Positions 12,082 to 37,334 of a DNA stretch of 37,334 bases are shown piece after piece. Below the pieces are notes generated by a model. That model had not been told where the DNA came from and did not search any database. It saw nothing but the letters and a program-made list of their open reading frames with translations. The DNA lies in assembly GCA_013415795.1 (NCBI GenBank), contig JAAEEL010000020.1, forward strand, positions 1 through 37,334. The letters run 5' to 3'. Both the position numbers and the translations under genes were made by a program. The DNA comes from Methanocellales archaeon (GTDB lineage: Archaea; Halobacteriota; UBA148). Within the stretch, counting starts at the first letter, position 1. Every line of letters begins with the position of its first letter.

Positions 12082-12171
12082 GCCTCGGTGGCTCAGTCTG
12101 GCTAGAGCGAGTGACTTGTAACAAAATTGCAAGAAATCACTAGGTCGCGAGTTCAAATCTCGCCCGAGGCT
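12082..12171 (+). tRNA. tRNA-Thr (anticodon TGT) with a 15-nt intron at the canonical 37/38 position
   Basis: Folded by hand. Acceptor GCCTCGG/CCGAGGC, D stem GCTC/GAGC, anticodon stem AGTGA/TCACT, loop CTTGTA|A, T arm GCGAG-TTCAAAT-CTCGC. The intron 12121-12135 (ACAAAATTGCAAGAA) sits in a bulge-helix-bulge: a central helix CTTG/CAAG flanked by 3-nt bulges TAA and AAA. Confidence 0.85.
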
Positions 12172-25457: not shown

Positions 25458-26516
25458 TTACACATCTACACCCGCATTAAAACTCGAGACTGCCATGGCG
25501 GCATTTTTGAGCAATTTTAGAGCTGCTTCCTGATGAATAAAACCCCCTAGACCACAATCTGGACCTGAGTATTTTATCCTGTTTCCAAATTTCTGATATG
25601 CTATTTCGAGCCTTCTCTTTATTATGTTGACGTTTTCGGTCTCGTCGATCATTTGCAACGCTTTACATGTATCCCTCCATATATCAATTCCAGTCGCATC
25701 CCTATATCCTGCTGCCATAGCATCTATGTCCGTTCTAGCTATTCCAACACGTAAAAACTTATCATATTTGTCCAGATCTTTCTTCGATATCACATCCAGA
25801 CTGCTGGGCGTAGATGCAGATTCCACACCAACGATGTTTATGCCATCCACTCCGTATATTTTCTCGGTCTCCAGTGGAGAGTGAAGATGAATCTGAACGT
25901 CCATTCCTTTCGCTGGATTGGAGACTTTTTCTAGCGCCATCAGCAATTCGTCATCCTCTATTATCAACTGTGGGTCCACTCCAAGACTTGGTTCGTCGAT
26001 AGATATCACCCGCGTCTCAAGATGTTTTTTTCTCAGAATGCCATTTTTCACGAAATTGGACAAGCTTTTTGCCAAACTCTCCAACACGTCAACATGGATC
26101 ACATGGCCATAGCCCCTGATATGCAGTTCGACTGGCCCGGTAATGCAGACCTTTATACCCAATGCTTTGCCCGATGAATCATGATGTTCCTTTGCAACAT
26201 GCTCTATGGCACTGAGTTCGTGGATATTCGCTTTGTCCTCTTTAATCATCAGAGGTTTGTCGACCCAGTTCTTTGGATTTGTTATGGGGTACAAAAACTG
26301 AGAGATCATATTTTGTAATTGAGGATAGGTGAGCACGTCAACTCCAGATAGCATTTTCATCCGCATGACATCTTGCACCAATCGCTCATACTGATCGTGA
26401 TCGTTGATCACCATCTTCCCTATGTCTTGTCTTGTCAAACTCTTTGGAAGTGGAAAACTTCCTATGTCGTCAGATGCGATGAAATCCATTTTTGGGTCAT
26501 CTCCTCTATTCATCAT
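25458..26516 (-). CDS. MetE-like protein (cobalamin-independent methionine synthase catalytic-domain family / UROD-like TIM barrel)
   Basis: 352 aa. ISIDEPSLG resembles the MetE (I/V)QIDEP motif, and GPDCGLGG resembles the C-terminal Zn-Cys motif PDCGL. The usual HxC Zn motif appears as HLHS. It shares a 4-nt overlap with the upstream gene. Confidence 0.55.
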   Translation of the reverse strand: MMNRGDDPKMDFIASDDIGSFPLPKSLTRQDIGKMVINDHDQYERLVQDVMRMKMLSGVDVLTYPQLQNMISQFLYPITNPKNWVDKPLMIKEDKANIHELSAIEHVAKEHHDSSGKALGIKVCITGPVELHIRGYGHVIHVDVLESLAKSLSNFVKNGILRKKHLETRVISIDEPSLGVDPQLIIEDDELLMALEKVSNPAKGMDVQIHLHSPLETEKIYGVDGINIVGVESASTPSSLDVISKKDLDKYDKFLRVGIARTDIDAMAAGYRDATGIDIWRDTCKALQMIDETENVNIIKRRLEIAYQKFGNRIKYSGPDCGLGGFIHQEAALKLLKNAAMAVSSFNAGVDV

Positions 26517-27478
26517 CGAAGATAGATGTGCTTAAAATCTTTGGTGTATATCCAAGGGTCTTCCGTCTCAGCCTCCTTCTTAAGACGGAGGCAGTAGTCT
26601 ACCTTTGCATCACATTCATCTGAAAAGTATATCGCAAGGGCTTCTGGAAATTGCGGTTTCTTGGGCGATCCGTATTCGTTATGTCCATGATGACTTAGAA
26701 TAATGTGTGCCAACTTCAATCTAAGGGTCTCCGGGAAATTTTCAAGCCTGCCTATCCTGTCCAGGACCATCTGCTCCCCAACGACCAGATGCCCCCTCAG
26801 CATTCCCTCTTCAGATATGTCTATGCTTGTTGTTATGGCATACTCTTCTGTTTTACCTATGTCATGGAGAACTGCACCAGTCAAAAGCAAGTCCTTATCC
26901 AACGAGGGGTGAAGTATATATATGGAGTTACATAGCTTGACCACATTCAGCGTATGTTCGAGCAATCCGCCAATATAATTTTGATGCCTATGCATGGATC
27001 CGGGACAATTCTTGAATTTCTCGACGAATTCCCAGTCATCGAAAAAGGAATGTAGAAGAGTCTTCAGGTGTGAATTCTGCACAAAATCGACAATTTCCAG
27101 AAGTTCCCGCATCATCTGACCCATATCTTTGCTAGTTTTCGAGACAAAATCACCCATATCATACTCAGAGGGTTCGCACCTCCGCAAGGTATGGGTTGTG
27201 TCCAGGGCTATCTCCAATCTGTCCCTGAACTCGCTAACTCTGCCCGTGATGTGGATGACATCGTTCGTTTGGAATATACCGTAGATCTCCTTTATCTGCT
27301 CTTCGTTCCTGTCTCCCCAGTATTTTGCCGTGATCTCACCACTGTTATCGCTAACCCTGAACTCAAACCAAAACCCAGAGGCATATTCTCTCGGCGGTTT
27401 TTTGTATTTGATCGCGAAGAGACTGTCCACGTTGTCCCCCACCCTTAGGTCCTTGACGAACTGATTTTTTCTCACCAT
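26513..27478 (-). CDS. OB-fold + HD-domain phosphohydrolase (YhaM-like 3'-5' exonuclease architecture)
   Basis: N-terminal OB-like segment (VKDLRVGDNVDSLFAIK...FEFRVSDNSGEITAKYWG) and an HD domain (HRHQNYIGGLLEHT...VLHDIGK). I place the start at ATG 27478; the longest ORF extends to 27499. Confidence 0.7.
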   Translation of the reverse strand: MVRKNQFVKDLRVGDNVDSLFAIKYKKPPREYASGFWFEFRVSDNSGEITAKYWGDRNEEQIKEIYGIFQTNDVIHITGRVSEFRDRLEIALDTTHTLRRCEPSEYDMGDFVSKTSKDMGQMMRELLEIVDFVQNSHLKTLLHSFFDDWEFVEKFKNCPGSMHRHQNYIGGLLEHTLNVVKLCNSIYILHPSLDKDLLLTGAVLHDIGKTEEYAITTSIDISEEGMLRGHLVVGEQMVLDRIGRLENFPETLRLKLAHIILSHHGHNEYGSPKKPQFPEALAIYFSDECDAKVDYCLRLKKEAETEDPWIYTKDFKHIYLR

Positions 27479-27517
27479 ATTTTCTCGCCCACCAGTCACC
27501 TTTCTTTATTCATCTTT

Positions 27518-28126
27518 TCAGACATCATTCTTTTGATTTAGAAATAAACATTCATCACATTTATGCTTGTTACAAAATTCTTTTCCATAGTTGACAATAA
27601 GGGCGTGGAACTCTTTGAACATAGCTATGTCGTTAGGTAATTCATTCTCAAAACGTTCCTGCAACAGATCATAGCCTCCCGATATGCCAAGGCACTTACA
27701 GATGCGAGCCGTATAGGCATCGATGACGAATTTCGGCCTGTCTAGTGCATAGAGAAGTATGCTGTCTGCTGTCTCCTTTCCGATGCCCTTTAGTGAGAGC
27801 AGATCGTTCCTTAGGTTTTCAAGGGGCATCTCAGATGTTGATAAATTTTCAGCAAAATATACCGAAGCAGTCTGTAGTCGTTCTGCCTTTTGCCTGTAGA
27901 ACCCAGTACATTTAACCAGTGACTCCAGTTTTGACCTATCGACCTTGGCGAGGGCATCAGGCTCCAGCAGATTGTGTTCCTTCAGATTGTTAATAGCCAT
28001 TTCCACGTTCTCCCACCTCGTCCGCTGGGTTAGTATGGCACCAACTACCACTTCAAAAGGGGTTTCTGCGGGCCACCATTGCTGTTCTCCCAACTCTTCC
28101 AGAAGTTTGTTGTAGATTTCGATCAT
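27518..28126 (-). CDS. Endonuclease III-related HhH-GPD superfamily protein
   Basis: 202 aa with WWPAETPFEVVVGAILTQRTRWENV, the HhH motif LLSLKGIGKETADSILLYA, the Asp in VIDAYTARI, and C-terminal cysteines (CNKHKCDEC). Confidence 0.8.
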   Translation of the reverse strand: MIEIYNKLLEELGEQQWWPAETPFEVVVGAILTQRTRWENVEMAINNLKEHNLLEPDALAKVDRSKLESLVKCTGFYRQKAERLQTASVYFAENLSTSEMPLENLRNDLLSLKGIGKETADSILLYALDRPKFVIDAYTARICKCLGISGGYDLLQERFENELPNDIAMFKEFHALIVNYGKEFCNKHKCDECLFLNQKNDV

Positions 28127-28527
28127 TTTTGTCCTACATTATCGATAATTTTCTGTTGAATAAGAGAGACTTTTTATCCTCAGTTGCGAATGAGAGAAGT
28201 TTATCCAAACGATATTCGGCCATCGGATCGTTGATGATTGGATTACTTTTTTGGGATTAGATTATATGACATCTTAGTGTCAATATCGCCGTTTTTGATA
28301 CATCTGTTAATCTCATGATGAAACTGCTTTTAATTTTTTGTATTTGCGCGGCTTTGGACGTTTAGTCTTTATAATTCTTTATAATAGTAGAGTAATTAAT
28401 CAATTAATAGCAGATCGATTTGAATATTTAAAAATTTATGGAATCATTAGGTACTTAGTTTAAGTTTAATTTACATCCCAAGATTTTATCAGATTGGTAA
28501 AAGATGGGTTAAGAGGTTGTCTAAAAA

Positions 28528-29007
28528 ATGGAAAACGATTGTGAGTGTCCAATATTGGATAAAAAGGATTGGGACCTTAAGAAACATCATTGGAATGAAA
28601 GAGCCTTCTACAGAATAAAGCATTTCTTGTTTCTTCACATGCCAATTGGCATTGGTAGAGCAATTAAAAAAGGCATGGATAAAATCGAAGAAAGGGGCTA
28701 TACGGTCAAACCACCATACATGATGCTCGATGATGAAACTGGATTCTTTTCTGCAAACATGTTGATTGCAATAGAAGAGATTCCAAAAAATGTTCCTGAT
28801 GTAGAAGTGTGGAGTCCTGCAACCACTTATTCAAAATATTATCACGGTCCTTTCAAGGGTTTGAAAAAAGAGATAACCGAACTCATAGATTTTGTTGAAA
28901 ATAAGGAGAAAAAGAAGCCAGTCAGGATTTACTCATGGGTCACGAATTGTCCAAAATGCTGGGAAAAACACGGCGGACCTAAGACAATAATTTTTGCCAG
29001 AGTTTAA
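28528..29007 (+). CDS. Hypothetical protein (159 aa) with N-terminal CxC and C-terminal CPKC
   Basis: Clean ORF with an ATG start, preceded by a 400-bp AT-rich gap. I recognise no family with confidence. Confidence 0.5.
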   Translation: MENDCECPILDKKDWDLKKHHWNERAFYRIKHFLFLHMPIGIGRAIKKGMDKIEERGYTVKPPYMMLDDETGFFSANMLIAIEEIPKNVPDVEVWSPATTYSKYYHGPFKGLKKEITELIDFVENKEKKKPVRIYSWVTNCPKCWEKHGGPKTIIFARV

Positions 29008-29127
29008 GATAAGATAAAAAAACATGAAATGAAAATGGGCAAATAACTATAAGAGAATGGATTAGGTTATATCAGATGGACGCGAACTGGAATAGCATAA
29101 AGGCAGGAAGTTAAAGGGGTATAATCA

Positions 29128-29733
29128 GTGAGAATTCTTGGTTATAATACGAGTTTGATAGAGACGTTAATAATAGCCAATGCAGTGATGTTCATTATCA
29201 CATTGATAAATCCGGGTTTAATAATAAATAATCTGGGTCTTCAACCTTCTTTAGCCCTTGAAAGACCGTGGACATTGGTTACATCCATGTTCCTGCATGG
29301 TGGCCTTTGGCACATATTTGCCAACATGTTTACGCTATTTTTCTTTGGCAATTACCTCCAGGGTCTGATTGGTAATAGAGACCTGTTAAAACTATATTTC
29401 GTTGGCGGCACACTCGGGAATATCCTCGTTGTTTTTTTGGCGGCTCCCGACTCGATAGCAGTTGGCGCCTCTGGTGCGATATTCGCGCTCGGAGGTACCC
29501 TATCCGTGTTAAGACCTAACCTCAGGGTATTCATTATTCCCATTCCCATCCCAATACCGCTCTGGATTGCCGTGATTGGCGGTTTCTTAGTACTTTCATT
29601 AATGCCTTTTATTTCATGGCAGGCACACTTGGGAGGGTTGATTGTAGGACTTGTATTTGGCTATTATTTCAAAAAAAATGGCGTTGGACGGGAAGGAGCA
29701 TACAGATTCTACGACTATGAATATAGATATTGA
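29128..29733 (+). CDS. Rhomboid-family intramembrane serine protease
   Basis: 201 aa with HGGLWHIFANM (HxxxN), the catalytic GASGAIFAL (GxSG) and the downstream AHLGG histidine; multiple TM segments. GTG start after AAAGGGG. Confidence 0.85.
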   Translation: MRILGYNTSLIETLIIANAVMFIITLINPGLIINNLGLQPSLALERPWTLVTSMFLHGGLWHIFANMFTLFFFGNYLQGLIGNRDLLKLYFVGGTLGNILVVFLAAPDSIAVGASGAIFALGGTLSVLRPNLRVFIIPIPIPIPLWIAVIGGFLVLSLMPFISWQAHLGGLIVGLVFGYYFKKNGVGREGAYRFYDYEYRY

Positions 29734-29775
29734 AAAATATCTTGATACTTAATATTTTCAGGAAAGATGTTAATG

Positions 29776-31149
29776 TTATTTTTGGGAGATATATTCATGA
29801 ATCGCTCTGGCGGCTCTCTTTCCTGCCCCCATGGATTCAATAACAGTAGCAGCACCAGAAACAATATCACCGCCAGCAAATACCCCCTCTTTGGACGTCA
29901 TGCCATTCTCGTCGACCAACAAGGTACCCCTCTCAGTAACTTGTAGTCCCTCTGTAGTTCTCGATATCAGTGGATTGGGGCTTTGACCAATGGCTATTAT
30001 CACGGTATCGACGTCAATGGTAAACTCAGAATTTTTTATTATGACGGGCTTTCTTCTACCGGATTCGTCTGGATCTCCCAGCTCCATCCGAACGCATTCA
30101 ATTTTTTTTACCCAACCCTTCTCATCGCCCAAGATTTTCGTCGGTAGGGTTAGAAACTTAAATTTAATTCCCTCTTCCTTGGAGTGCTCTATTTCCTCCT
30201 GCCTGGCAGTCATTTCCTTTTCTGTTCTTCTGTACAGGATGCACACTTCATCAGCCCCCAGTCGTAGAGCTGCTCTTGCAGAGTCCATTGCTACATTACC
30301 ACCACCGATCACCGCCACTTTCTTGCCTTCTCTGATGGGCGTGTCATACTCTGGAAACAAATAAGCGCCCATTAGATTAATTCTTGTCAAAAACTCATTT
30401 GCAGAGTAAACTCCACATAGGTCCTCACCAGGTATATCCATCCAGCGAGGTAAGCCCGCACCGGTTCCTATGAATACAGCATCGAATTCTTCCAGAAGTT
30501 CATCGATACTGATCGTTTTTCCTATAATGACACCAGTTTTAATGGAAACTCCAAATTTTTTTATGTAATCGATTTCCGCTCTAACTATTTCCTTCGGCAA
30601 CCTGAACTCGGGGATGCCATAAACGAGCACCCCACCAGTCGCATGAAGAGCCTCAAAAAGGGTCACCTGGTACCCAAGCTTTGCTAGATCCGCAGAAACG
30701 GTTATTCCTGCCGGACCGGAGCCCACAACTGCCACTTTTTTGCCTGTAGACTTTGGTTTACTTGAAATCTTAAACCCCTTTTGACGATCGTAATCAGCAA
30801 CGAACCTTTCAAGTTTACCTATGGCCACTGGCTCCCCTTTCTTAGCTAATAAACAGAATTTCTCACATTGATTTTCGTGAGGGCAAACGCGTCCACAAAT
30901 AGCTGGCAGTTGGTTTTTATTTCTCACTACTCTGATGGCCTCATCAAAACTGCCATCTTTGATACGCTCGATAAAATCAGGTATGTCAACTTCCACAGGA
31001 CATCCATTTATGCAGCCTGGATCAGCGCAGTGCAAGCATCTTTTGGCTTCAGAAACTGCTTGATCGGCGCTGTAACCCAGAGCCACCTCCTCAAAATTTT
31101 TAATTCTCTTTTCAGGATCTTGCTCCTGCATCGGTATTCTAAGCGTCAT
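29776..31149 (-). CDS. NfnB / SudA / GltD-like NAD(P)H-dependent oxidoreductase large subunit (glutamate synthase small-chain family)
   Basis: 457 aa with N-terminal Fe-S cysteines (CLHCADPGCINGCP, CGRVCPHENQCEKFC) and two Rossmann motifs (VAVVGSGPAG, VAVIGGGNVAMD). Confidence 0.85.
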   Translation of the reverse strand: MTLRIPMQEQDPEKRIKNFEEVALGYSADQAVSEAKRCLHCADPGCINGCPVEVDIPDFIERIKDGSFDEAIRVVRNKNQLPAICGRVCPHENQCEKFCLLAKKGEPVAIGKLERFVADYDRQKGFKISSKPKSTGKKVAVVGSGPAGITVSADLAKLGYQVTLFEALHATGGVLVYGIPEFRLPKEIVRAEIDYIKKFGVSIKTGVIIGKTISIDELLEEFDAVFIGTGAGLPRWMDIPGEDLCGVYSANEFLTRINLMGAYLFPEYDTPIREGKKVAVIGGGNVAMDSARAALRLGADEVCILYRRTEKEMTARQEEIEHSKEEGIKFKFLTLPTKILGDEKGWVKKIECVRMELGDPDESGRRKPVIIKNSEFTIDVDTVIIAIGQSPNPLISRTTEGLQVTERGTLLVDENGMTSKEGVFAGGDIVSGAATVIESMGAGKRAARAIHEYISQK

Positions 31150-31155
31150 CTTTAA

Positions 31156-31905
31156 CTATCCCAGCACCAAGGCCAACTTTTCTTCTGTTAGGTATCTTTG
31201 CAGTCTAGTCATCAAATGATCAAAGTCAACCCCATGGGCATCAAATTCTGGTCCATCCACACAGGTAAACTTAGTCTCACCATCAACCCTAACCCTACAA
31301 GAGCCACACATTCCCGTTCCGTCCACCATAATTGGATTTAGACTTACTATGGTCCTTATGTTGTGCGGCCTCGTAACATTGGCTACTGCCTTCATCATTA
31401 TAACCGGTCCAACAGCTTCCACAAGATCGATATTTTTTCTTTCATCGATCAGCTTTTGTAGAATGTCTGTAACGAAACCATGATGTCCTTTGGAGCCGTC
31501 ATCCGTCGTTATGTAAAGTTCATCGCTTATTTTCTGCAATTCTTCCTCTAATATTAACAATTCTTTGGTTCTGGCTCCGATGATAGATATGACCTTATTT
31601 CTGGCTTTTGCTAATTCTTTGACCTTAAGATATATGGATGCCGCGCCAACTCCGCCACCGATACAGACAACTCTTCCATATCTTTTGATCTCTATTGGAT
31701 TTCCCAAAGGACCCGCAAAATCCAAGATTTGGTCACCCTCGTTTAGATTTCCCAATCTTTTTGTGGTCTTGCCAACTTCTTGAAATATGATAGTGATAGT
31801 TCCTTTTTGAACATCGAAATCAGCAATGGTTAATGGTATCCGCTCTCCTTTTTCATCTATTCGCAAGATTATAAATTGTCCTGGCTTAGCTTTCTTTGCA
31901 ACCAA
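31156..31905 (-). CDS. NfnA / SudB / PyrK-like FAD and [2Fe-2S] electron-transfer subunit (N-terminus probably extends to about 31980)
   Basis: PGQFIILR (FAD-binding barrel), GGGVGAA (NAD-like fold) and the C-terminal cluster motif DGTGMCGSCRV...FTCVDGP. The coordinates are the track ORF (TTG start). See the finding on the missing canonical start. Confidence 0.8.
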   Translation of the reverse strand: MVAKKAKPGQFIILRIDEKGERIPLTIADFDVQKGTITIIFQEVGKTTKRLGNLNEGDQILDFAGPLGNPIEIKRYGRVVCIGGGVGAASIYLKVKELAKARNKVISIIGARTKELLILEEELQKISDELYITTDDGSKGHHGFVTDILQKLIDERKNIDLVEAVGPVIMMKAVANVTRPHNIRTIVSLNPIMVDGTGMCGSCRVRVDGETKFTCVDGPEFDAHGVDFDHLMTRLQRYLTEEKLALVLG

Positions 31906-32052
31906 TGGAGCGAATACTTCAAATAATTTGACGGTTGGAGCTAGCTCTTTTTTGTTAATGATCGTATTTATTTTAGATATTAACTTCCCTCCTGTTTGTG
32001 CAAAGACCTATCCAAGCAGTGGTATTTTAAGTTATGGTTTGCTTATAACGAT

Positions 32053-32712
32053 ATGATGTTAGAGTCGTTTTACTTGATGATTGGAAAAATAACCGTCTAT
32101 TTCTTCCTAATAGCTGCAGTAACGACCATATTCATAGCAATCTTTGTGATACATTCATTCAGGACTGGTAGTTTTCCTTTCCCAAATGTTGTGCTCTCTG
32201 GAATATTAGTTTTGGAGGGTTCGATCAAGGCACTATTCCGATTGTTTAAGGTAGATGATTCGATAGTAGATGACGTCGTCATTAGATTAAGAAATAAGGT
32301 TTCTTTAAAAAGGTTCAAGGGTCTTCCCTTTGAAAAGAAGTCGATATTTCTGCCCCAGTGTCTTCGCTCAGTGAACTGCCCGGCGAAGCTCTCACCAGAG
32401 GGTATCCAATGCATAAACTGCGGTCGATGTAAAATCGGGGATGCGAAAAAAAAGTTAGAGTCCTCGGGTTATAGGGTTTTCGTCGTCCCTGGATCAAGTT
32501 TCATCAAGCGAATGGTAGAAAAATATAGACCTGAGGCGATCCTGGGTGTTGGGTGCATATCAGAAGTGAAAGATGGTATGGATTTATGTCATAGATTCGG
32601 TGTTCCGGCGGTGGCCATTCCATTGGACACAGATGGTTGTATATCCACTGAGTTAGATTGGGATGTTTTTTATAATACGACAAAAGCAGACAAGATTGCT
32701 AGTGAATCATAA
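32053..32712 (+). CDS. DUF116-family protein (membrane-anchored, Cys-rich)
   Basis: N-terminal TM helices followed by LPQCLRSVNCPAKLSPEGIQCINCGRCKIG and VVPGSSF...GVGC, as I recall for DUF116. ATG 32053 is preferred; the TTG at 31996 would sit on the nfnA-like ribosome-binding site. Confidence 0.7.
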   Translation: MMLESFYLMIGKITVYFFLIAAVTTIFIAIFVIHSFRTGSFPFPNVVLSGILVLEGSIKALFRLFKVDDSIVDDVVIRLRNKVSLKRFKGLPFEKKSIFLPQCLRSVNCPAKLSPEGIQCINCGRCKIGDAKKKLESSGYRVFVVPGSSFIKRMVEKYRPEAILGVGCISEVKDGMDLCHRFGVPAVAIPLDTDGCISTELDWDVFYNTTKADKIASES

Positions 32713-33667
32713 CATTAGTTATCGCATCTATTGGAATAGCTGTAAATCCCTTCTCATTAAGATATTGCGCGAGTTTTGTCGGCCGGCCCCCAGGAGGATG
32801 ATAAAGGATCGTAACCTCTGGATTACAATCGTGCACCATTTCCATCAAGCCATCGAAATCGAGGTGATCGCTTATCTGAATTCGTTGATGCGAACAACTC
32901 CTCCCAGTTAATACGAATTTATCCAGATGATCTGGTAAGCGATTCAAATAACGTGGTGGAACGATGCGCATTTTGCCATTTTCGCCTAGATCTGCCAGCG
33001 GCCCCATGTGTTCCATTAATTCTCTAGTCAATTCCAGTGATTTACTGTCCATAACTATTTCTTCTCCATAACCCAGCATACGAAGTAGTTTTACCGCCCT
33101 TTGAGCCTTACCAAATGAATATGCACCGAATGCAACGTTCTCCCTAATCGCATCCTTGAAGGCGCCTATATCGTCCTTAAACCTGCATTGTGGATCGTAG
33201 GGATCTCCATAGGTTGCTTCCGTAACAAGAACATCGCATCTTGGAAGATGAGAAGAATCCTTGACATCTCCTGTTGCCAGTATGGTGGTACCGACTTCAT
33301 TTTCCCAAGAAAAAGCTGTGGATCCGATGGTATGACCTGTCGGATGCGTTCGAATCCTAACGCCGTCCATATCCAAATTATCTCCGACCTTAAAGGTCGT
33401 CCCAACAAATCTTCTTCCACATAAGATCTCAAGAGCTTTCGCTGTTTTTTCAGATGCTACAGACTTTTTGGAAGCCATTGCAGAGCGACCATAATGATCC
33501 GAATGTGCGTGGGTTATCAAAAGTCTATGGGAGTCTTCGTTAGGGGTGGTATCGATTCCAAATACATGTCGCTTTTCTGACCTAAATAGGATCAACAGAT
33601 GTGGCGTATACCCTTTCGAACTCCTCCTACGTATTGGCAATACACCCAGATCTATCAGTTTTTTCAA
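32699..33667 (-). CDS. Metallo-beta-lactamase fold hydrolase, short beta-CASP-like (putative nucleic-acid exonuclease)
   Basis: 322 aa with HxHxDH motif (THAHSDHYG), the downstream His in TGHTIGS, ATGD, and TEATYG typical of beta-CASP members. It overlaps the convergent DUF116 gene by 14 nt. Confidence 0.7.
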   Translation of the reverse strand: MKKLIDLGVLPIRRRSSKGYTPHLLILFRSEKRHVFGIDTTPNEDSHRLLITHAHSDHYGRSAMASKKSVASEKTAKALEILCGRRFVGTTFKVGDNLDMDGVRIRTHPTGHTIGSTAFSWENEVGTTILATGDVKDSSHLPRCDVLVTEATYGDPYDPQCRFKDDIGAFKDAIRENVAFGAYSFGKAQRAVKLLRMLGYGEEIVMDSKSLELTRELMEHMGPLADLGENGKMRIVPPRYLNRLPDHLDKFVLTGRSCSHQRIQISDHLDFDGLMEMVHDCNPEVTILYHPPGGRPTKLAQYLNEKGFTAIPIDAITNVMIH

Positions 33668-33763
33668 AAGGCACCCATCCCTCTTGATAGGAATTGTGTC
33701 TTAAGATATATATAGATATATGAAAAGTTATTTCTGCTCTAAAGGTTAAATGTTGAAGAGATT

Positions 33764-33861
33764 GCTCCGGTAGTGTAGTCCGGCCAAATTCAGCCAGAAC
33801 TGGAGGTCATTCATGCAGGACTCTCACTCCTGCGACTGGGGTTCAAATCCCCACCGGAGCA
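33764..33861 (+). tRNA. tRNA-Glu (anticodon CTC) with a 23-nt non-canonical intron in the D-loop
   Basis: Acceptor GCTCCGG/CCGGAGC, anticodon stem CAGGA/TCCTG with loop CTCTCAC, T arm TGGGG-TTCAAAT-CCCCA, discriminator A. Removing 33788-33810 (ATTCAGCCAGAACTGGAGGTCAT) restores the usual archaeal tRNA-Glu D arm GTGTAGTCCGGCCAATCAT. The insert folds into a bulge-helix-bulge. Confidence 0.8.
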
Positions 33862-34246
33862 TACGTATTATCGGAAAATGTCCTAAACCCTCTTTAAGGA
33901 TTTTGTTGATGAAAAACTCCTCAAGTAACCCCTCATCTAGTCTTTGTAGACCTTCTTCTCCCCGCCCATTATAAATCTCCTTTATCGATTAAAAGCACGT
34001 TCTGACGCCTCGACCTCTATCCACTCACGATTCCGCTGTACAAGATTGTTCAAATAATGATTAGAAAAAAGCTTGCTGTTCCGCATGAAACTCAGGCTTA
34101 ACTGGACCAGGGATATACCCCAATTATCCTACGATACTTCGTATATCCTATCTTAAACCCCTTTAAATATACGTTACCAAAATTTTGCCTATAAGTTAAT
34201 TTTTATAAAAAGAAAATAGCAAACCTTATGTTTTCATAAATCAAAC

Positions 34247-35902
34247 TTGAATTTAAAAATTAGATTTAGGGGCTTAATCTTGGATCTTGTTAAAATACCG
34301 GGCATAGGACCTAAAAAAGAAAAGGAACTTAGTAGCATTGGGGTCTTCACCGTAGAGGATCTGGCTAAGCGAAGTTTCTGGGATGATCGAGGAGAAGCCT
34401 ATTTTGGGCATAATTGGTGGGTACGCTTGGTTAGAGGGGCTAGGATGTCCGTTGGGCAGATTATCATAAATGATGTCAAAAAAATATCTCAAGACGAGAT
34501 CGTAATAGAAACGGATAAAACATATTCTGATGAAGAACTGATAAAAAAATCAGTTGCTAGTCTTCTCCATTCCCACGATTACTGGTTCTTGACGTCAATT
34601 AAGGAAGATATTAACTCGTACAGGGTAACCGTCTTGCCTGTTGAGAGCAGCAAGCACTATTTCACGAAATACATCATAACCAGCGCTGAATGCTTGATAG
34701 AGCAGATACGAAGAGGGAGAAATGGTGAAGAGACCAAAGATTTCACAGAAAAAGAAACTGCAAGAGATATGGAAGCTTCCCTAATGAACTATTTAAAAGG
34801 CCTGATGCCCAGAGAGAGAGACGTCAAGGACTTCGCCAAGTCCATGCAACTTAGCTCTCTCTGTGAGTACTTTGAAGAATACGGAGGAATGGCATCTATA
34901 GATGTTTTATTGTCATGGGCTCAGCTTTTCGGTATTGCAGACGTAGATGTACTGAAGCCTAATGGCGAGAAGTTGACCACCACGGGCTTTCACCTGGCAT
35001 ACTTCGGTGATGTTGGAACTGGGAAGACATATTCCAGCATCGATTTCGTTATGGGCAACGAGAGAATCGGACTGGAACCTCACGGTATTCCTGGAAGATA
35101 CAGATACTGTGGAGGTATAACTCCCTATATGTTTATTCAAATGGGGCAGTATTATGAGGGAGATAAGATGGTGTTCCTCGTTCCAGAGTTCAACGACTGG
35201 TTCTTTCATGAAAAAGGGATGGTCGAGAGGTTGAAGCTAGCGATGGAGCAAAAACCTCTGAAGTATGAGTCGTCTCGCGAAACCATAGGACCTTATGTTT
35301 TTACCTCCTTCTTTAACGCGAACTACAACGTCAAGATAAAGAAGAAAGGGTATAAGCTCACTGTTTCCGACCCGAACTTTAACGCCATCGAAGACAGGTG
35401 TTTCTGCAGACTTCATAAGATGACTAAGCAAAGGTTCTTGGATATTATCGATTCAATAGAAAAACACACACTTGGTACGAACAAGGAAATAAAGATTACA
35501 CCCGACCAGATAAGAGATCATGCAACGCTCCTCTACTCGATAAATACCGGACTGATCAACCACTACAAGCCATCAAAAGTCCAGTTCTCAGAGGAACAAA
35601 TAAGTACCATCATGTCAGCCATCAAAATATTTGCAGAGGAGTATATGGGTGATGGGAAGCTCATAAATGCTTCTCCGAGATCCATCTATAAATGCCTACA
35701 ACTTGCATCTACTTTGACGTTGCCCTTTTACTTCACCGCCAAGGCCATAGAATCCCCTAGCCATCGGATACTATTGGTTGAGGATAGGGCATTAAATATG
35801 GCTGTTGAGATTATGATTGAGGAGCTAACCGTTAGGATGCTAAAAGATTCCTCTCCGGAGAACGTAAAGGAGACCGTTCTTCCGAAGTTATTCGATGGCT
35901 AG
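34247..35902 (+). CDS. Hypothetical HhH + AAA+ ATPase (MoxR/MCM/Lon-BrxL-like clade), function unknown
   Basis: 551-aa ORF with a TTG start (an in-frame TTG at 34280 after AGGGG is an alternative). N-terminal helix-hairpin-helix VKIPGIGPKKEKELSSIGVFTVEDLA. Walker A GDVGTGKT (35006-35029). Walker B-like MVFLVPEF. Box VII-like AIEDRCF. Sensor-2-like ASPRSIYKCLQLA. Confidence 0.7.
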   Translation: MNLKIRFRGLILDLVKIPGIGPKKEKELSSIGVFTVEDLAKRSFWDDRGEAYFGHNWWVRLVRGARMSVGQIIINDVKKISQDEIVIETDKTYSDEELIKKSVASLLHSHDYWFLTSIKEDINSYRVTVLPVESSKHYFTKYIITSAECLIEQIRRGRNGEETKDFTEKETARDMEASLMNYLKGLMPRERDVKDFAKSMQLSSLCEYFEEYGGMASIDVLLSWAQLFGIADVDVLKPNGEKLTTTGFHLAYFGDVGTGKTYSSIDFVMGNERIGLEPHGIPGRYRYCGGITPYMFIQMGQYYEGDKMVFLVPEFNDWFFHEKGMVERLKLAMEQKPLKYESSRETIGPYVFTSFFNANYNVKIKKKGYKLTVSDPNFNAIEDRCFCRLHKMTKQRFLDIIDSIEKHTLGTNKEIKITPDQIRDHATLLYSINTGLINHYKPSKVQFSEEQISTIMSAIKIFAEEYMGDGKLINASPRSIYKCLQLASTLTLPFYFTAKAIESPSHRILLVEDRALNMAVEIMIEELTVRMLKDSSPENVKETVLPKLFDG

Positions 35903-36352
35903 CTCATCCAATACCATTTCTACCACTTGTTTCACCGCTTCATTCACTTTAGTCGTAAGCCCAATGGTGAAATTTTTTGTCCTCTCAATTTCAACACCGA
36001 TGATGATGATGTCTTCTGTTATTGACATGACTTTTTTTCCGATGTTTAGAACGTCAACTAAGCCAAGCTCATGCAATGAGAAGTATATCGAAGAAGGATC
36101 TGGAAGTTCTTTGTAAGTGAACCTATATATTTTACCAACCTCTGATCCTGAGCTCATGGCATCGATGATGATTACCTTGCCAGCATTTTCCATAAAACTG
36201 AGTAGACTAAGACTACCAGTACCTGCATCTATCAGCTCCACATGGACCGGCAGTTCTTTTCTCTTAAGTTCCTCTAAAACGTAAAAACCAAATCCATCGT
36301 CGCCCATCAAGGGATTTCCACAGCATAATACAACGGTTTTCAGAAGCCTCAC
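35888..36352 (-). CDS. hycI: Hydrogenase maturation endopeptidase (HycI/HyaD family)
   Basis: 154 aa with VVLCCGNPLMGDDGFG near the N-terminus, IIIDA mid-protein and a later His (SLHELG). It lies immediately downstream of hypE with no gap, and overlaps the convergent AAA+ gene by 15 nt. Confidence 0.8.
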   Translation of the reverse strand: MRLLKTVVLCCGNPLMGDDGFGFYVLEELKRKELPVHVELIDAGTGSLSLLSFMENAGKVIIIDAMSSGSEVGKIYRFTYKELPDPSSIYFSLHELGLVDVLNIGKKVMSITEDIIIIGVEIERTKNFTIGLTTKVNEAVKQVVEMVLDELAIE

Positions 36353-37334
36353 CTAGCATACCCTTGGAATTAGTTCCCCTAAAGGCGTTTCAACGTATCT
36401 CTTACCACCAAGTCCCGTTTCTAAGATTACCTTTTTTCTATGTTCTCCAATGACCTGACCTATTATTCTCGCTTCTTGACCATATTTTGTCTTTTTGATA
36501 GCCTTTAGAATGAGATCGGCACTATCTGGCTTCACGCCGATTACAGCTTTCCCTTCATTCGCAACATCCAAAGGATCGATTCCAAGCATCCCCGATGCTG
36601 ACCTAACGGCGTCTTTCAATGGAATCTGATCCTCTTTAATTAGTATCCCCACACCACTTTTCTTTGCCATCTCATTTAACGCAGACGACAAGCCGCCTCT
36701 TGTTGGGTCTTTCATTGCAGTTACTCCCCCAATATCCAAAGCCGCCTTTATCATGTTCCACAATGGAGCTGCGTCAGACTCTAGTTCAGTCTCAAACGAA
36801 AATCCTTCTCTGAACGCTAAGAGTGATATACCATGGTCTCCGACGGTTCCCGTGACGATGATCTTATCGCCAACATTTAGGCCTGAGTCGCGTATCAGTT
36901 GATCTGCAAAGCCAATACCAGATGTGTTAAGTACCAAATTGTCCAATGCACCCTTTTCCATTACCTTGGTATCACCAGTGATGATTGATACGCCTACTTC
37001 ATTGGCAATTTCATCCATAGACTGAACGATACGTTCCAGTTCCTTAATTGGAAACCCCTCCTCTACAATAATGCTGCTGGTCAAAGCAAGTGGACGAGCC
37101 CCCATGACTGCCAGATCATTTATGGTTCCACAAACTGCAATTTTACCAATATTACCACCCGGAAAGAATAATGGTTTGACAACATAGCTGTCTGTGGTGA
37201 GCACAACCTCTTTATCGCCTATGTAAACGGTTGATCCGTCATCAAGATCAGACAAGCCAACACTTCCAACACTGTGGTCAGACATGTTACTGAGTATCTT
37301 AGCTATTAACTCCTGCATGAGCACTCCTCCGGAA
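36353..37334 (-). CDS. hypE: Hydrogenase maturation protein HypE (5' end lies beyond the right window edge)
   Basis: KPLFFPGGNIGKIAVCGTINDLAVMGA, TGDTKV, GDHG and the C-terminal PRVC tail. The frame stays open upstream of the track's GTG start and reads ...SGGVLMQELI, matching the conserved HGSGG...M..LI HypE N-terminus. A few codons are therefore missing off-window. Confidence 0.9.
   Translation of the reverse strand, partial: SGGVLMQELIAKILSNMSDHSVGSVGLSDLDDGSTVYIGDKEVVLTTDSYVVKPLFFPGGNIGKIAVCGTINDLAVMGARPLALTSSIIVEEGFPIKELERIVQSMDEIANEVGVSIITGDTKVMEKGALDNLVLNTSGIGFADQLIRDSGLNVGDKIIVTGTVGDHGISLLAFREGFSFETELESDAAPLWNMIKAALDIGGVTAMKDPTRGGLSSALNEMAKKSGVGILIKEDQIPLKDAVRSASGMLGIDPLDVANEGKAVIGVKPDSADLILKAIKKTKYGQEARIIGQVIGEHRKKVILETGLGGKRYVETPLGELIPRVC

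What the first reader, a model, noticed from the sequence alone, without database searches (positions are those of the whole stretch)
33862..35902. Orphan 551-aa HhH + AAA+ ATPase behind a 385-bp non-coding gap next to tRNA-Glu: best candidate for an undescribed function
After tRNA-Glu comes an unusually long gap with no ORFs (33862-34246). A single large gene follows, and I cannot place it in any characterised family. Residues about 12-40 form a helix-hairpin-helix DNA-binding motif (VKIPGIGPKKEKELSSIGVFTVEDLA). Residues about 45-245 are unassignable. Residues about 250-551 carry an AAA+ core: Walker A GDVGTGKT, Walker B-like MVFLVPEF (Glu but no preceding Asp), a conserved-looking insert IGLEPHGIPGRYRYCGG, Box VII-like NAIEDRCFCRL and a lid motif NASPRSIYKCLQLA. 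These motifs recall the MoxR/Mg-chelatase/MCM/Lon-BrxL (helix-2-insert) clade. Unlike BrxL or Lon there is no protease domain, and unlike MCM there is no OB/Zn N-terminal tier. It has no operon partners: it converges on hycI with a 15-nt overlap. A DNA-tethered AAA+ motor beside a tRNA gene is the kind of solitary gene seen in defence or mobile-element-derived loci. I see no integrase or att repeat here, so a housekeeping DNA-remodelling role is equally possible.
Basis: partly seen in the sequence, partly recalled or inferred. Interest (0 to 1): 0.7.

Follow-up and report, generated by a model that had tools for sequence, protein, structure and literature searches.

The report
Unnamed MCM-fold DNA motor with HhH
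The gene is real, is kept by selection, and belongs to an unnamed, mostly archaeal family of ring-ATPase-like proteins shaped like the MCM replicative helicase; here it stands alone with a DNA-binding tip, whereas relatives elsewhere sit behind restriction-modification enzymes.

Summary
An intron-bearing tRNA-Glu(CTC) lies at 33764-33861, followed by a gene-free gap and one large ORF that overlaps hycI by 15 nt. The real start is probably TTG 34280 (540 aa), not 34247.

Pfam, NCBIfam, PADLOC and PDB sequence searches place only a borderline HhH motif. The AlphaFold model matches MCM helicases (Foldseek E about 1e-8, TM about 0.4). An HMM profile shows no similarity to BrxL.

The family is small and mostly archaeal, and every member is labelled "hypothetical". 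The scans found 329 protein clusters and 356 loci among 185,579 species genomes. None were found in the viral contigs, phage records or plasmid records searched.

Catalytic residues are nearly invariant, but the Walker B Asp is replaced by Pro or Thr. Three members carry inteins at catalytic motifs. dN/dS is about 0.1.

In other clades the gene follows type IIG or PglX-like methylase-nuclease fusions, sometimes with a HEPN-like tail. In Bathyarchaeia it follows a 547-aa coiled-coil protein. The HhH clade (Methanocellales, Micrarchaeota) has no operon partner, native composition and conserved local synteny.

Best reading: a DNA-tethered, ring-forming ATP-driven DNA motor. Whether it serves genome maintenance or defence is unresolved. 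It is a new family of a known kind.

The parts
33764..33861 (+). tRNA-Glu(CTC) with a 23-nt non-canonical insert (33788-33810) in the D-loop region
   Evidence: Rfam RF00005, 52 bits. ARAGORN misses it. In alignment with L011, L012 and L014, the insert is shared with L011 and L012 and absent from L014, whose copy ARAGORN calls tRNA-Glu ctc.
33862..34159 (.). Lineage-variable spacer directly 3' of the tRNA; no gene, no Rfam family, no repeat
   Evidence: About 33877-34160 does not align with any relative. The equivalent interval is about 180 nt in L011. In L012 it is about 600 nt and holds an N6_N4 methylase fragment. In L014 it is about 2.1 kb and holds a Clp1-type kinase and a DUF488 gene. 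GC of the whole 33862-34279 gap is 0.35.
34160..34279 (+). Conserved upstream region: A/T-rich TATA-like box about 34200-34212 (TTTTTATAAAAAG), leader, and AGGGGC 6-7 nt before the start
   Evidence: 80-86% identical in L010-L013 while the preceding spacer is not alignable. The promoter role is inferred from position and conservation only.
34280..35902 (+). Coding sequence of the MCM-fold AAA+ ATPase (540 aa from TTG 34280; the maximal ORF starts at TTG 34247, 551 aa; residue numbers in this report use the 551-aa frame)
   Evidence: ORF. The start is invariant in relatives and is ATG in L001 and L016. dN/dS is 0.08-0.12 against L011-L014.
34280..34369 (+). Helix-hairpin-helix motif (residues 12-41, IPGIGPKKEKEL...)
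   Evidence: HHH_5 E 2.2e-5, 25.3 bits, just under the cut-off. IMS_HHH and Cdd1 give weaker hits. Pol beta HhH in PDB, E 0.025. G19, G21 and K23 are invariant in the HhH clade (G8, G10, K12 in A2 numbering).
34379..34747 (+). Clade-specific N-terminal region (residues 45-167): long helix, then a small beta-beta-alpha-beta-beta domain, then a helix; fold not assigned
   Evidence: AlphaFold N-terminal model, pLDDT 81-94 up to about residue 150. No Foldseek match at E<=0.001.
34748..34933 (+). Two long helices (residues 168-229) that open the family-wide conserved module
   Evidence: pLDDT 90-95. Homologues of every clade align from about residue 165 onward.
34934..35422 (+). AAA+ alpha/beta core (residues 230-392). 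Walker A GDVGTGKT 35006-35029. Loop HGIPGRYRYCGG 35081-35116. Walker B VFLVPEFNDWF 35171-35203. Predicted beta-hairpin before sensor 1 (residues 337-351). Sensor-1 FFNANYN 35309-35329. Arg-finger motif DPNFNAIEDR 35369-35398.
   Evidence: Foldseek top 50 PDB hits are all MCM, E 8e-9 to 5e-7. Conservation in 220 sequences: K260 219, E314 219, N361 220, R384 220. Inteins interrupt the Walker B and Arg-finger motifs in P0141, P0166 and P0140.
35423..35899 (+). Helical lid and C-terminal helices (residues 393-551), with sensor-2-like SPR (35672-35680) and invariant R530
   Evidence: Secondary structure and pLDDT 94-97 over residues 420-460 and 480-520. R478 is present in 219/220 and R530 in 215/220.
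35888..36352 (-). hycI (hydrogenase maturation protease), convergent, 15-nt overlap with the ATPase stop region; a neighbour, not a partner
   Evidence: PF01750, 4.6e-28. Same arrangement in L010-L014.

Best explanation
The gene encodes a stand-alone member of an unnamed, mostly archaeal family of AAA+ ATPases whose conserved C-terminal two-thirds has the MCM-type fold.

Inferred mechanism. Subunits assemble into a ring. ATP is bound by Walker A K260 and hydrolysed with E314. Sensor-1 N361 assists in the same subunit, and the neighbouring subunit supplies R384 (and R478) in trans. The hydrolysis cycle moves central loops along DNA: the invariant H-G-x-P-G-x-x-R-Y-C-G-G loop and the hairpin before sensor 1. 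In this clade (Methanocellales and Micrarchaeota) the clade-specific N-terminus begins with one helix-hairpin-helix motif, which would hold the ring on the DNA backbone without sequence preference.

The protein is therefore most likely an ATP-driven DNA translocase, helicase or clamp-like motor. It is expressed from its own conserved upstream region as a resident chromosomal gene.

The biological role is not settled. I lean towards genome maintenance (about 45%) over a partner-less defence motor (about 30%).

Shown here: the fold class, conservation of the catalytic residues, purifying selection, family distribution and gene neighbourhoods. Inferred: ring assembly, DNA as the substrate, and direction of action.
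For: - Fold: the AlphaFold model (pLDDT 79.8, pTM 0.69) gives only MCM2-7 and archaeal MCM among the top 50 PDB matches (E 8e-9 to 5e-7). Viral replicative helicases top the BFVD search.
- Active site: K260, E314, N361, R384, R478 and K330 are each kept in 219-220 of 220 family members.
- Inteins sit directly after Walker B and inside the Arg-finger motif. This is the pattern described for replication and repair ATPases (PMC4760082).
- The gene is functional and resident: dN/dS 0.08-0.12, native GC and codon usage, synteny kept in L011, L012 and L014 with a conserved 120-nt upstream region.
- DNA link, in this protein: the HhH motif.
- DNA link, in other clades: the gene lies immediately downstream of DNA methylase-nuclease fusions. 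These are PglXI-like (1.6e-68), type IIG (5.8e-93 and 1.9e-54), and N6_N4_Mtase+NmeDI_C.
- DNA link, in a second Methanocellales subclade: the gene sits beside DNA ligase, a LigD-type PrimPol and Nre.
Against: - No biochemical data exist for any family member.
- The Walker B Asp is missing (Pro 167, Thr 50, Asp 1 of 220), so Mg2+ coordination must be unconventional and activity could be low or regulatory.
- TM-scores to MCM are only about 0.4, with 10-15% identity. Profile searches find no MCM, BrxL or other PDB relative.
- No helix-2 insert hairpin is evident in the model.
- The R-Y-C-G-G loop resembles the aromatic-hydrophobic-Gly pore loop of protein unfoldases (my own knowledge), so the substrate could be a protein.
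- The HhH score is just below Pfam's threshold.
- The ligase neighbourhood has an intergenic gap of about 275 nt and may be mere synteny.
Confidence: 0.55

Rival explanations
1. Partner-less defence motor. The protein would be the ATPase subunit of a restriction-modification-like anti-virus system that has lost its methylase-nuclease partner or works with one encoded elsewhere. It would load on foreign DNA and block or hand it over, much as BrxL is thought to do in BREX.
For: - In at least three clades the gene is the distal gene of a two-gene operon with RM-type enzymes.
- Some of those ATPases carry a C-terminal extension with an invariant RN[RK]AAH (HEPN-like Rx4H) motif. It gives sub-threshold DUF4145 and HEPN_Swt1 hits.
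- Distribution is patchy, including a few CPR and other bacterial genomes, and there is no hit in cultured Methanocella.
- The spacer next to the gene is a variable hot spot that holds a methylase fragment in L012.
Against: - No methylase, nuclease or effector domain lies in or next to the gene here or in L010-L014.
- The HhH clades are separate from the RM-linked clades in the NJ tree.
- Composition is native and synteny is fixed.
- There is no PADLOC hit for any family member tested.
- The gene is present in Micrarchaeota, including on a contig of about 1.17 Mb.
- A motor alone has no evident way to tell self from non-self.
Confidence: 0.3
2. DNA-tethered protein remodeller. The ring would thread or strip proteins (for example stalled or cross-linked DNA-bound proteins) through an aromatic-hydrophobic-Gly pore loop. 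The HhH would only localise it to DNA.
For: - The invariant R-Y-C-G-G follows the short predicted strand at residues 285-287 and precedes the helix at 293-303. That is where classical AAA+ unfoldases carry pore loop 1 (sequence and model; loop identity from my own knowledge of ClpX, FtsH and Lon).
- The main partner in Bathyarchaeia is a coiled-coil protein with no nucleic-acid domain detected.
Against: - The best structural matches are DNA helicases, not unfoldases.
- Partners in other clades are DNA enzymes.
- No protease or adaptor domain is present.
Confidence: 0.1
3. Decaying or non-enzymatic remnant. The loss of the Walker B Asp would mark a pseudo-ATPase kept only as a scaffold, or a gene on its way out.
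For: Walker B reads VPEF rather than hhhhDE. There is no partner and no annotation anywhere.
Against: - The Asp-less Walker B is the family norm (218 of 220), while every other catalytic residue is invariant.
- dN/dS is about 0.1 over both the N-terminus and the core.
- The ORF is intact in all relatives, and the start and upstream region are conserved.
Confidence: 0.05

Closest known systems
MCM replicative helicase (archaeal MCM, eukaryotic MCM2-7)
   Same: The closest solved fold: the top 50 Foldseek hits are all MCM, E about 1e-8. The order of elements matches: P-loop, Walker B followed by an 'E-F-x-D' and 'A-M-E-Q' stretch, a predicted hairpin before sensor 1, an Arg finger after strand 5, and a sensor-2 Arg in the lid. 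The motif comparison comes from my knowledge of MCM sequences. Some members also carry inteins at catalytic motifs.
   Different: There is no Pfam MCM hit and no profile hit to any PDB MCM. There is no OB-fold or Zn-finger N-terminal tier; instead there is an HhH plus a small alpha/beta domain with no fold match. No helix-2 insert is evident. The Walker B Asp is replaced by Pro or Thr. Distribution is patchy, not universal.
BrxL (BREX type 1/4 MCM-family AAA+; PDB 8EMC)
   Same: Comparable layout in concept: an N-terminal DNA-binding module plus an MCM-family AAA+ domain, as PMC12839542 and PMC10164562 describe for BrxL. Type-4 BrxL also lacks a C-terminal domain. Relatives of this gene are encoded next to PglX-like methylases.
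   Different: There is no sequence or profile similarity to E. coli HS BrxL beyond the P-loop (hhalign probability 1.5%). There is no PADLOC BrxL hit and no Lon-like or HKD C-terminal domain. No PglZ or BrxC was seen in the RM-linked loci inspected (L026, L032, L038, L047, L172-L174), and neither appeared among the window ORFs scanned with Pfam (25458-37324). BrxL is not among the top 50 structural hits.
RuvA-RuvB branch-migration motor
   Same: HhH DNA-backbone binding is combined with an AAA+ ring motor. Here the two are in one polypeptide; in RuvAB they are in two proteins (my own knowledge).
   Different: The AAA+ core matches MCM, and no RuvB appears among the top 50 PDB matches shown. 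There is no RuvA- or RuvB-family hit.
ATP-dependent restriction systems with a separate AAA+ motor (McrBC/LlaI type)
   Same: In several clades the ATPase is a separate subunit encoded next to a DNA-recognising nuclease/methylase.
   Different: It is not McrB-like by sequence. The partners are type IIG or PglXI-like methylase-nuclease fusions, not McrC. The window gene has no such partner.

Membership tests
MCM (PF00493 and N-terminal tier) | Significant match to the MCM AAA+ profile or sequence | tested here: not met
   No MCM family at E<=1 in Pfam or NCBIfam. The family profile finds no MCM among PDB sequences.
MCM (PF00493 and N-terminal tier) | MCM-type AAA+ fold | tested here: met
   Foldseek top 50 are all MCM, E 8e-9 to 5e-7, TM about 0.4.
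MCM (PF00493 and N-terminal tier) | N-terminal OB fold with Zn-binding motif | tested here: not met
   The N-terminal model shows HhH, a long helix and a beta-beta-alpha-beta-beta unit, with no significant fold match. The sequence has no CxxC pairs.
MCM (PF00493 and N-terminal tier) | Helix-2 insert beta-hairpin | tested here: inconclusive
   The model shows an uninterrupted helix at 293-303 between strands 285-287 and 309-312. The conserved loop 279-290 lies before it. No coordinates-level superposition was possible.
MCM (PF00493 and N-terminal tier) | Walker B hhhhDE | tested here: not met
   VPEF here. Pro 167, Thr 50, Asp 1 of 220 at the Asp position; Glu is kept in 219/220.
BrxL (BREX) | Match to BrxL profiles or sequence | tested here: not met
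   PADLOC gives 0 families for the window protein at E<=1 and for P0020 and P0078 at E<=0.01; P0096 gives only two marginal non-BrxL hits (MkoA, TPR). hhalign of the family profile against E. coli HS BrxL gives probability 1.5% over 20 columns at the P-loop.
BrxL (BREX) | C-terminal Lon-like or HKD domain (type 1) | tested here: not met
   The protein ends in a helical lid with no further domain.
BrxL (BREX) | Encoded in a locus with PglZ and BrxC | tested here: not met
   Neighbours here are tRNA-Glu, an MBL-fold gene, DUF116, hycI and hypE. The related RM-linked loci show only a methylase-nuclease gene.
Functional AAA+ ATPase (general) | Walker A Lys, catalytic Glu, sensor-1 polar residue, Arg finger, sensor-2 Arg | tested here: met
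   K260, E314, N361, R384 and R478 are kept in 219-220 of 220 sequences. Assignment of each role rests on position in the predicted fold.
Functional AAA+ ATPase (general) | Ring oligomer and ATP hydrolysis | not testable with these tools
   No multimer prediction or biochemistry was available.
HhH DNA-binding motif (PF14520 HHH_5) | Profile match above the gathering score | tested here: inconclusive
   25.3 bits against a cut-off of 27 (E 2.2e-5). The 93%-identical P0002 is annotated PF14520. The GxG hairpin is invariant in the clade, and the two helices are modelled with pLDDT above 90.
Integrated mobile element / genomic island at a tRNA | Integrase, att direct repeat of the tRNA 3' end, atypical composition, presence/absence polymorphism of the gene | tested here: not met
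   There is no second copy of the tRNA 3' end (up to 3 mismatches) and no direct repeats. GC is 0.425 against 0.418+-0.023. The gene is present at the same place in L010-L014. Only the spacer 33877-34160 varies.

The most novel reading that the evidence does not exclude
The family would be a second, previously undescribed lineage of MCM-fold ring motors in archaea, with two lives. In one, it is the ATP-driven subunit of a new class of two-gene restriction/defence modules: a methylase-nuclease fusion plus the motor, sometimes with a HEPN-like RNase tail. In the other, it is a domesticated chromosomal DNA-maintenance motor. That form is HhH-fused and stand-alone in Methanocellales and Micrarchaeota, and paired with a 547-aa coiled-coil protein at a fixed locus in Bathyarchaeia. 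The window gene would be an example of the domesticated form.
Probability: 0.3. Interest if true: 0.75.

Novelty: new variant of a known kind. Interest (0 to 1): 0.6.

Why it matters
MCM-type motors are known as replicative helicases and, more recently, as the BrxL component of BREX. This family would be a sequence-unrecognisable third branch. It is conserved enough to host inteins, has an Asp-less Walker B, and is used with at least four different partners.

That would give a new handle on how ring motors are recruited to restriction-modification enzymes. It would also point to an unstudied DNA transaction in Bathyarchaeia, Micrarchaeota and Methanocellales.

For annotation, it would turn several hundred "hypothetical proteins" into a defined family with testable catalytic residues.

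Tried and rejected
- Sequence family searches (Pfam, NCBIfam, PADLOC, PDB phmmer, and the family profile against PDB) gave nothing beyond the HhH.
- An exhaustive phmmer search of 1.84 billion representatives found only the family itself (83 hits) and no bridge to a known family. Pfam on the most distant hits found only inteins.
- The BrxL hypothesis was rejected as membership. I fetched E. coli HS brxL and compared it by hhalign and BLASTP, with no similarity.
- The mobile-element hypothesis was rejected: no hits in viral contigs, phages or plasmids, no att repeat or direct repeats, and native composition.
- The N-terminal region was modelled alone and searched against PDB. There was no significant match. 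Only weak resemblance to Y-family polymerase thumb/little-finger regions appeared (E 0.05-0.2; also NCBIfam Pol IV at E 0.009). I do not rely on this.
- The coiled-coil partner (c1) has no Pfam hit, only coiled-coil noise in PADLOC and PDB, no relation to the ATPase N-terminus or to the methylase partners, and no copy in the window.
- The HEPN reading of the C-terminal extension in the roughly 820-aa members gave only sub-threshold Pfam hits. It is kept as a lead, not a finding.
- Four literature searches, including one for the family's signature peptides, found no description of this family.
- ARAGORN failed on the intron-bearing tRNA and appears to have mis-registered it in L011.
Full report
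1. THE OBSERVATION

The ORF list shows a 551-aa ORF at 34247-35902 (+). It converges on a 154-aa ORF at 35888-36352 (-) with a 15-nt overlap. The latter is HycI (PF01750, 4.6e-28), and the next gene has the AIRS/AIRS_C domains expected of HypE.

ARAGORN reports no tRNA near 33800, but Rfam finds one at 33764-33861 (52 bits). Alignment with relatives shows why. The window copy, like those in L011 and L012, carries a 23-nt insert (33788-33810) after the D-loop GGCCAA. The L014 copy lacks it and is called tRNA-Glu(ctc).

The gap has no ORF of 60 aa or more and no Rfam family.

The start needs correcting. The in-frame TTG at 34280 is invariant in six relatives, is preceded by AGGGGC, and is ATG in the 61%-identical orthologues. 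The upstream TTG/ATG at 34247 is out of frame or followed by a stop in L012 and L014. The database gene call is also 540 aa.

2. WHAT THE SEQUENCE LIBRARIES SAY

- Pfam gives only a helix-hairpin-helix match for residues 12-41 (HHH_5, E 2.2e-5, 25.3 bits against a cut-off of 27), with weaker HhH families.
- NCBIfam gives only marginal non-family hits, PADLOC gives nothing, and PDB sequence hits are limited to the HhH of Pol beta.
- A profile of 46 homologues finds no PDB sequence.

3. IT IS NOT AN ORPHAN

The word-indexed search returns 329 homologous clusters, all "hypothetical" or unnamed. None carries a precomputed Pfam domain over the ATPase module; the only entries are an HHH_5 match on P0002 and PF01428 on two members. 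The exhaustive search of 1.84 billion representatives returns only 83 hits, all from the same family.

In one-genome-per-species data there are 356 loci among 185,579 species. Among the best 80 loci kept, most are Bathyarchaeia. Micrarchaeota, Methanocellales MAGs, Thermoplasmata, Korarchaeia and Thermoproteota follow, with a few CPR and other bacteria. No relative turns up in IMG/VR contigs, GenBank phages or PLSDB plasmids.

All clades share residues from about 165 to 551, at 40-45% identity across phyla. The N-terminal third is clade-specific.

The HhH start is found in all but one (N-terminally cut) member of two clades, Methanocellales and Micrarchaeota, and in no other clade.

4. FOLD

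The AlphaFold model built with the 46-sequence alignment has mean pLDDT 79.8 and pTM 0.69. Its parts in order are:
- the HhH motif;
- a long helix;
- a small beta-beta-alpha-beta-beta unit;
- two long helices (168-229);
- a five-stranded AAA+ core;
- a helical lid.

Foldseek against PDB returns only MCM2-7 and archaeal MCM chains in the top 50 (E 8e-9 to 5e-7, TM about 0.4, 10-15% identity). Against viral models it returns replicative and primase-associated helicases.

The N-terminal 234 residues, modelled alone (pLDDT 76, above 80 up to about residue 150), have no match at E<=0.001. Residues 45-167 therefore remain unassigned.

5. ACTIVE SITE

Counts are from 220 family members.

| Element | Residue(s) | Conservation |
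|---|---|---|
| Walker A | GxxGTGK[TS], K260 | 219/220 |
| Walker B Asp position | P313 here | Pro 167, Thr 50, Asp 1 |
| Catalytic Glu | E314 | 219/220 |
| After Walker B | F-N-D-[WF]-F | conserved |
| Helix after Walker B | K330, E334 | 220 and 219 |
| Sensor 1 | N361 | 220 |
| Arg finger | R384 in D-P-N-F-x-A-x-E-D-R | 220 |
| Lid | S476-x-R478 | R478 219 |
| Loop | H-G-x-P-G-x-x-R-Y-C-G-G (279-290) | nearly invariant |

The loop follows a short strand and precedes helix 293-303. The hairpin at 337-351 before sensor 1 is consistent with a pre-sensor-1 hairpin.

Three family members carry inteins. Two are inserted directly after Walker B (…EFNDWFxx|SGMVE) and one inside the Arg-finger motif (DPNF|SAVEDR). 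Inteins cluster at functional sites of replication and repair ATPases (PMC4760082). This fits with these motifs being the catalytic centre of a strongly constrained enzyme.

Against its four closest orthologues the window gene has dN/dS of 0.08-0.12, in both the N-terminus and the core.

6. THE LOCUS (ISLAND TEST)

The order DUF116, MBL-fold gene, tRNA-Glu, ATPase, hycI, hypE is kept in L011 and L012. L014 keeps the MBL-fold gene to hypE part, and L010 and L013 keep the part from the ATPase onward. Their ATPases are 84-93% identical to the window protein.

The last roughly 120 nt before the start codon are 80-86% identical among relatives. They include an A/T-rich TATA-like box at about 34200-34212.

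By contrast 33877-34160, directly 3' of the tRNA, aligns with nothing. The same interval is about 180 nt in L011. In L012 it is about 600 nt with a truncated N6_N4 methylase ORF on the other strand. In L014 it is about 2.1 kb with a Clp1-type P-loop kinase and a DUF488 gene.

There is no second copy of the tRNA 3' end in the window and no direct repeats around the gene. Gene GC (0.425) and codon usage lie within the window's range; GC3 is 1.8 SD high.

So the tRNA 3' flank is a small variable hot spot, but the ATPase is a resident gene beside it, not cargo.

A second Methanocellales subclade (about 61% identity) has the gene elsewhere. It lies about 275 nt downstream of DNA ligase, next to a LigD-type PrimPol and Nre.

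The nine Methanocellales loci all come from MAGs, and none is a cultured Methanocella. The gene is therefore patchy within the order.

7. NEIGHBOURHOODS ACROSS THE FAMILY

I called ORFs in 170 sequences (169 fetched loci plus the window), clustered them, and looked at the gene immediately upstream. Of 138 ATPase genes with upstream sequence:

| Upstream gene (same strand) | Count | Notes |
|---|---|---|
| ~547-aa coiled-coil protein | 61 | Often a 4-nt overlap; Bathyarchaeia; no Pfam or PDB relative |
| ~1040-aa type IIG restriction-methylase | 10 | Eco57I/N6_Mtase; PADLOC REase_MTase_IIG 5.8e-93 |
| ~900-aa PglXI-like N6_N4 methylase | 6 | PADLOC 1.6e-68 |

L033 and L035 add a third type IIG family (1.9e-54 and 3.4e-57).

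In three further loci (L172-L174), encoding two ~820-aa ATPases, the partner is an N6_N4_Mtase+NmeDI_C fusion, with a 20-nt gap or a 4-nt overlap. Those ATPases have a 250-aa C-terminal extension ending in an invariant RN[RK]AAH. This is the Rx4H signature of HEPN RNases, but it gives only sub-threshold DUF4145 and HEPN_Swt1 hits.

In a neighbour-joining tree of the core, the RM-linked, coiled-coil-linked and HhH clades are separate.

The HhH clades have no recurrent same-strand operon partner.

8. INTERPRETATION

Fold, conserved catalytic residues, inteins and selection show an active, constrained AAA+ enzyme of MCM type.

DNA as the substrate is inferred from three things: the HhH in this clade, the DNA enzymes encoded next to relatives, and the helicase-type structural neighbours.

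The most economical mechanism is a ring that hydrolyses ATP at subunit interfaces and moves along or holds DNA. In this clade the N-terminal HhH would tether it to DNA.

The role of the window gene cannot be fixed. Features that favour a maintenance role:
- fixed synteny;
- native composition;
- presence in Micrarchaeota, including on a contig of about 1.17 Mb;
- the ligase/PrimPol/Nre neighbourhood;
- absence of any discrimination or effector module.

Features that keep a defence role alive:
- RM association elsewhere in the family;
- patchiness within the order;
- the HEPN-like fusions;
- the adjacent hot spot.

A protein-remodelling reading rests only on the pore-loop-like RYCGG motif and the coiled-coil partner.

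9. COMPARISON WITH KNOWN SYSTEMS

The protein works most like MCM or BrxL, but it is a member of neither.
- No MCM profile hit, no OB/Zn tier, and an altered Walker B.
- No BrxL profile hit, no Lon or HKD domain, and no BREX genes nearby.

PMC12839542 and PMC10164562 describe BrxL as an N-terminal DNA-binding region plus an MCM-family AAA+ domain. That is the same design idea, reached with unrelated sequence.

I found no paper describing this family.

10. VERDICT

It is a new, unnamed family within a known kind of machine. The family has several unusual features: an Asp-less Walker B, an invariant HGxPGxxRYCGG loop, inteins, and at least four partner types. The function of the window's stand-alone HhH form is unresolved.

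Interest is 0.6. The mechanism-level reading has confidence 0.55.

Noticed in passing
window 33764-33861 (insert 33788-33810); L011, L012, L014: The tRNA-Glu(CTC) carries a 23-nt insert at a non-canonical position after the D-loop GGCCAA. L011 and L012 share it; L014 lacks it. L014 also has compensatory changes in the anticodon stem (GCAGG/CCTGC to TTGGG/CCCAA). ARAGORN misses the window and L012 copies, and in L011 it appears to call a shifted 73-nt tRNA.
   Followed up: partly
window 12082-12171 (+): A second tRNA is found only by Rfam (57.7 bits, 90 nt) and not by ARAGORN, so it probably also contains an intron. Its identity was not determined.
   Followed up: no
window 33877-34160; L012:9282-9857(-); L014:8478-9950(+): The interval directly 3' of tRNA-Glu is a variable hot spot. 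It is unique sequence in the window, holds a truncated N6_N4 DNA-methylase ORF in L012, and holds a Clp1-type P-loop kinase plus a DUF488 gene in L014.
   Followed up: partly
P0140, P0141, P0166 (family members, not in the window): Inteins (with LAGLIDADG or HTH inserts) interrupt the family ATPase directly after Walker B and inside the DPNF|xAxEDR Arg-finger motif.
   Followed up: yes
L005:6358-8004, L008:6376-8004, L025:548-2191 and about 58 other loci: In Bathyarchaeia a conserved ~547-aa protein lies immediately upstream of the ATPase, often with a 4-nt overlap. It has a globular N-terminal domain, about 230 aa of coiled coil and a C-terminal domain. It has no Pfam or PDB relative. The pair often sits at a fixed locus after genes that look, by eye, like an S-adenosylhomocysteine hydrolase and a sugar nucleotidyltransferase (not tested with Pfam), plus a small predicted membrane-protein gene.
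   Followed up: partly
P0079, P0096, P0106, P0107; L047:9485-11926: ATPases of about 820 aa have a 250-aa C-terminal extension ending in an invariant [YFH]RN[RK]AAH (HEPN-like Rx4H). In L172-L174 and L047 they follow methylase-nuclease fusions (N6_N4_Mtase+NmeDI_C in L172-L174). This may be an undescribed defence module.
   Followed up: partly
window 32699-33667 (-); L086; L005, L008, L040, L078: The MBL-fold gene upstream of the tRNA has a homologue four genes upstream of the ATPase operon in a Bathyarchaeota locus (L086). An unrelated small Lactamase_B gene is the divergent neighbour of the operon in several other Bathyarchaeia loci. This may be coincidence.
   Followed up: no
window residues 12-101 of the ATPase (34280-34549): There is weak resemblance to the thumb (HhH) and start of the little finger of Y-family DNA polymerases: NCBIfam Pol IV E 0.009, IMS_HHH E 0.007, and Foldseek Pol iota/Dpo4/DinB E 0.05-0.2. 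None is significant.
   Followed up: partly
L015 and L017 (same MAG, JAWCMA01): One Methanocellales MAG holds two copies of the gene in the same ligase/PrimPol/Nre context on two contigs. Strain mixing in the bin is more likely than true paralogy.
   Followed up: no
window 27518-28126 (-): An HhH-GPD base-excision glycosylase gene lies about 6 kb upstream. The segment 28157-28519 next to it is also not alignable with relatives.
   Followed up: no
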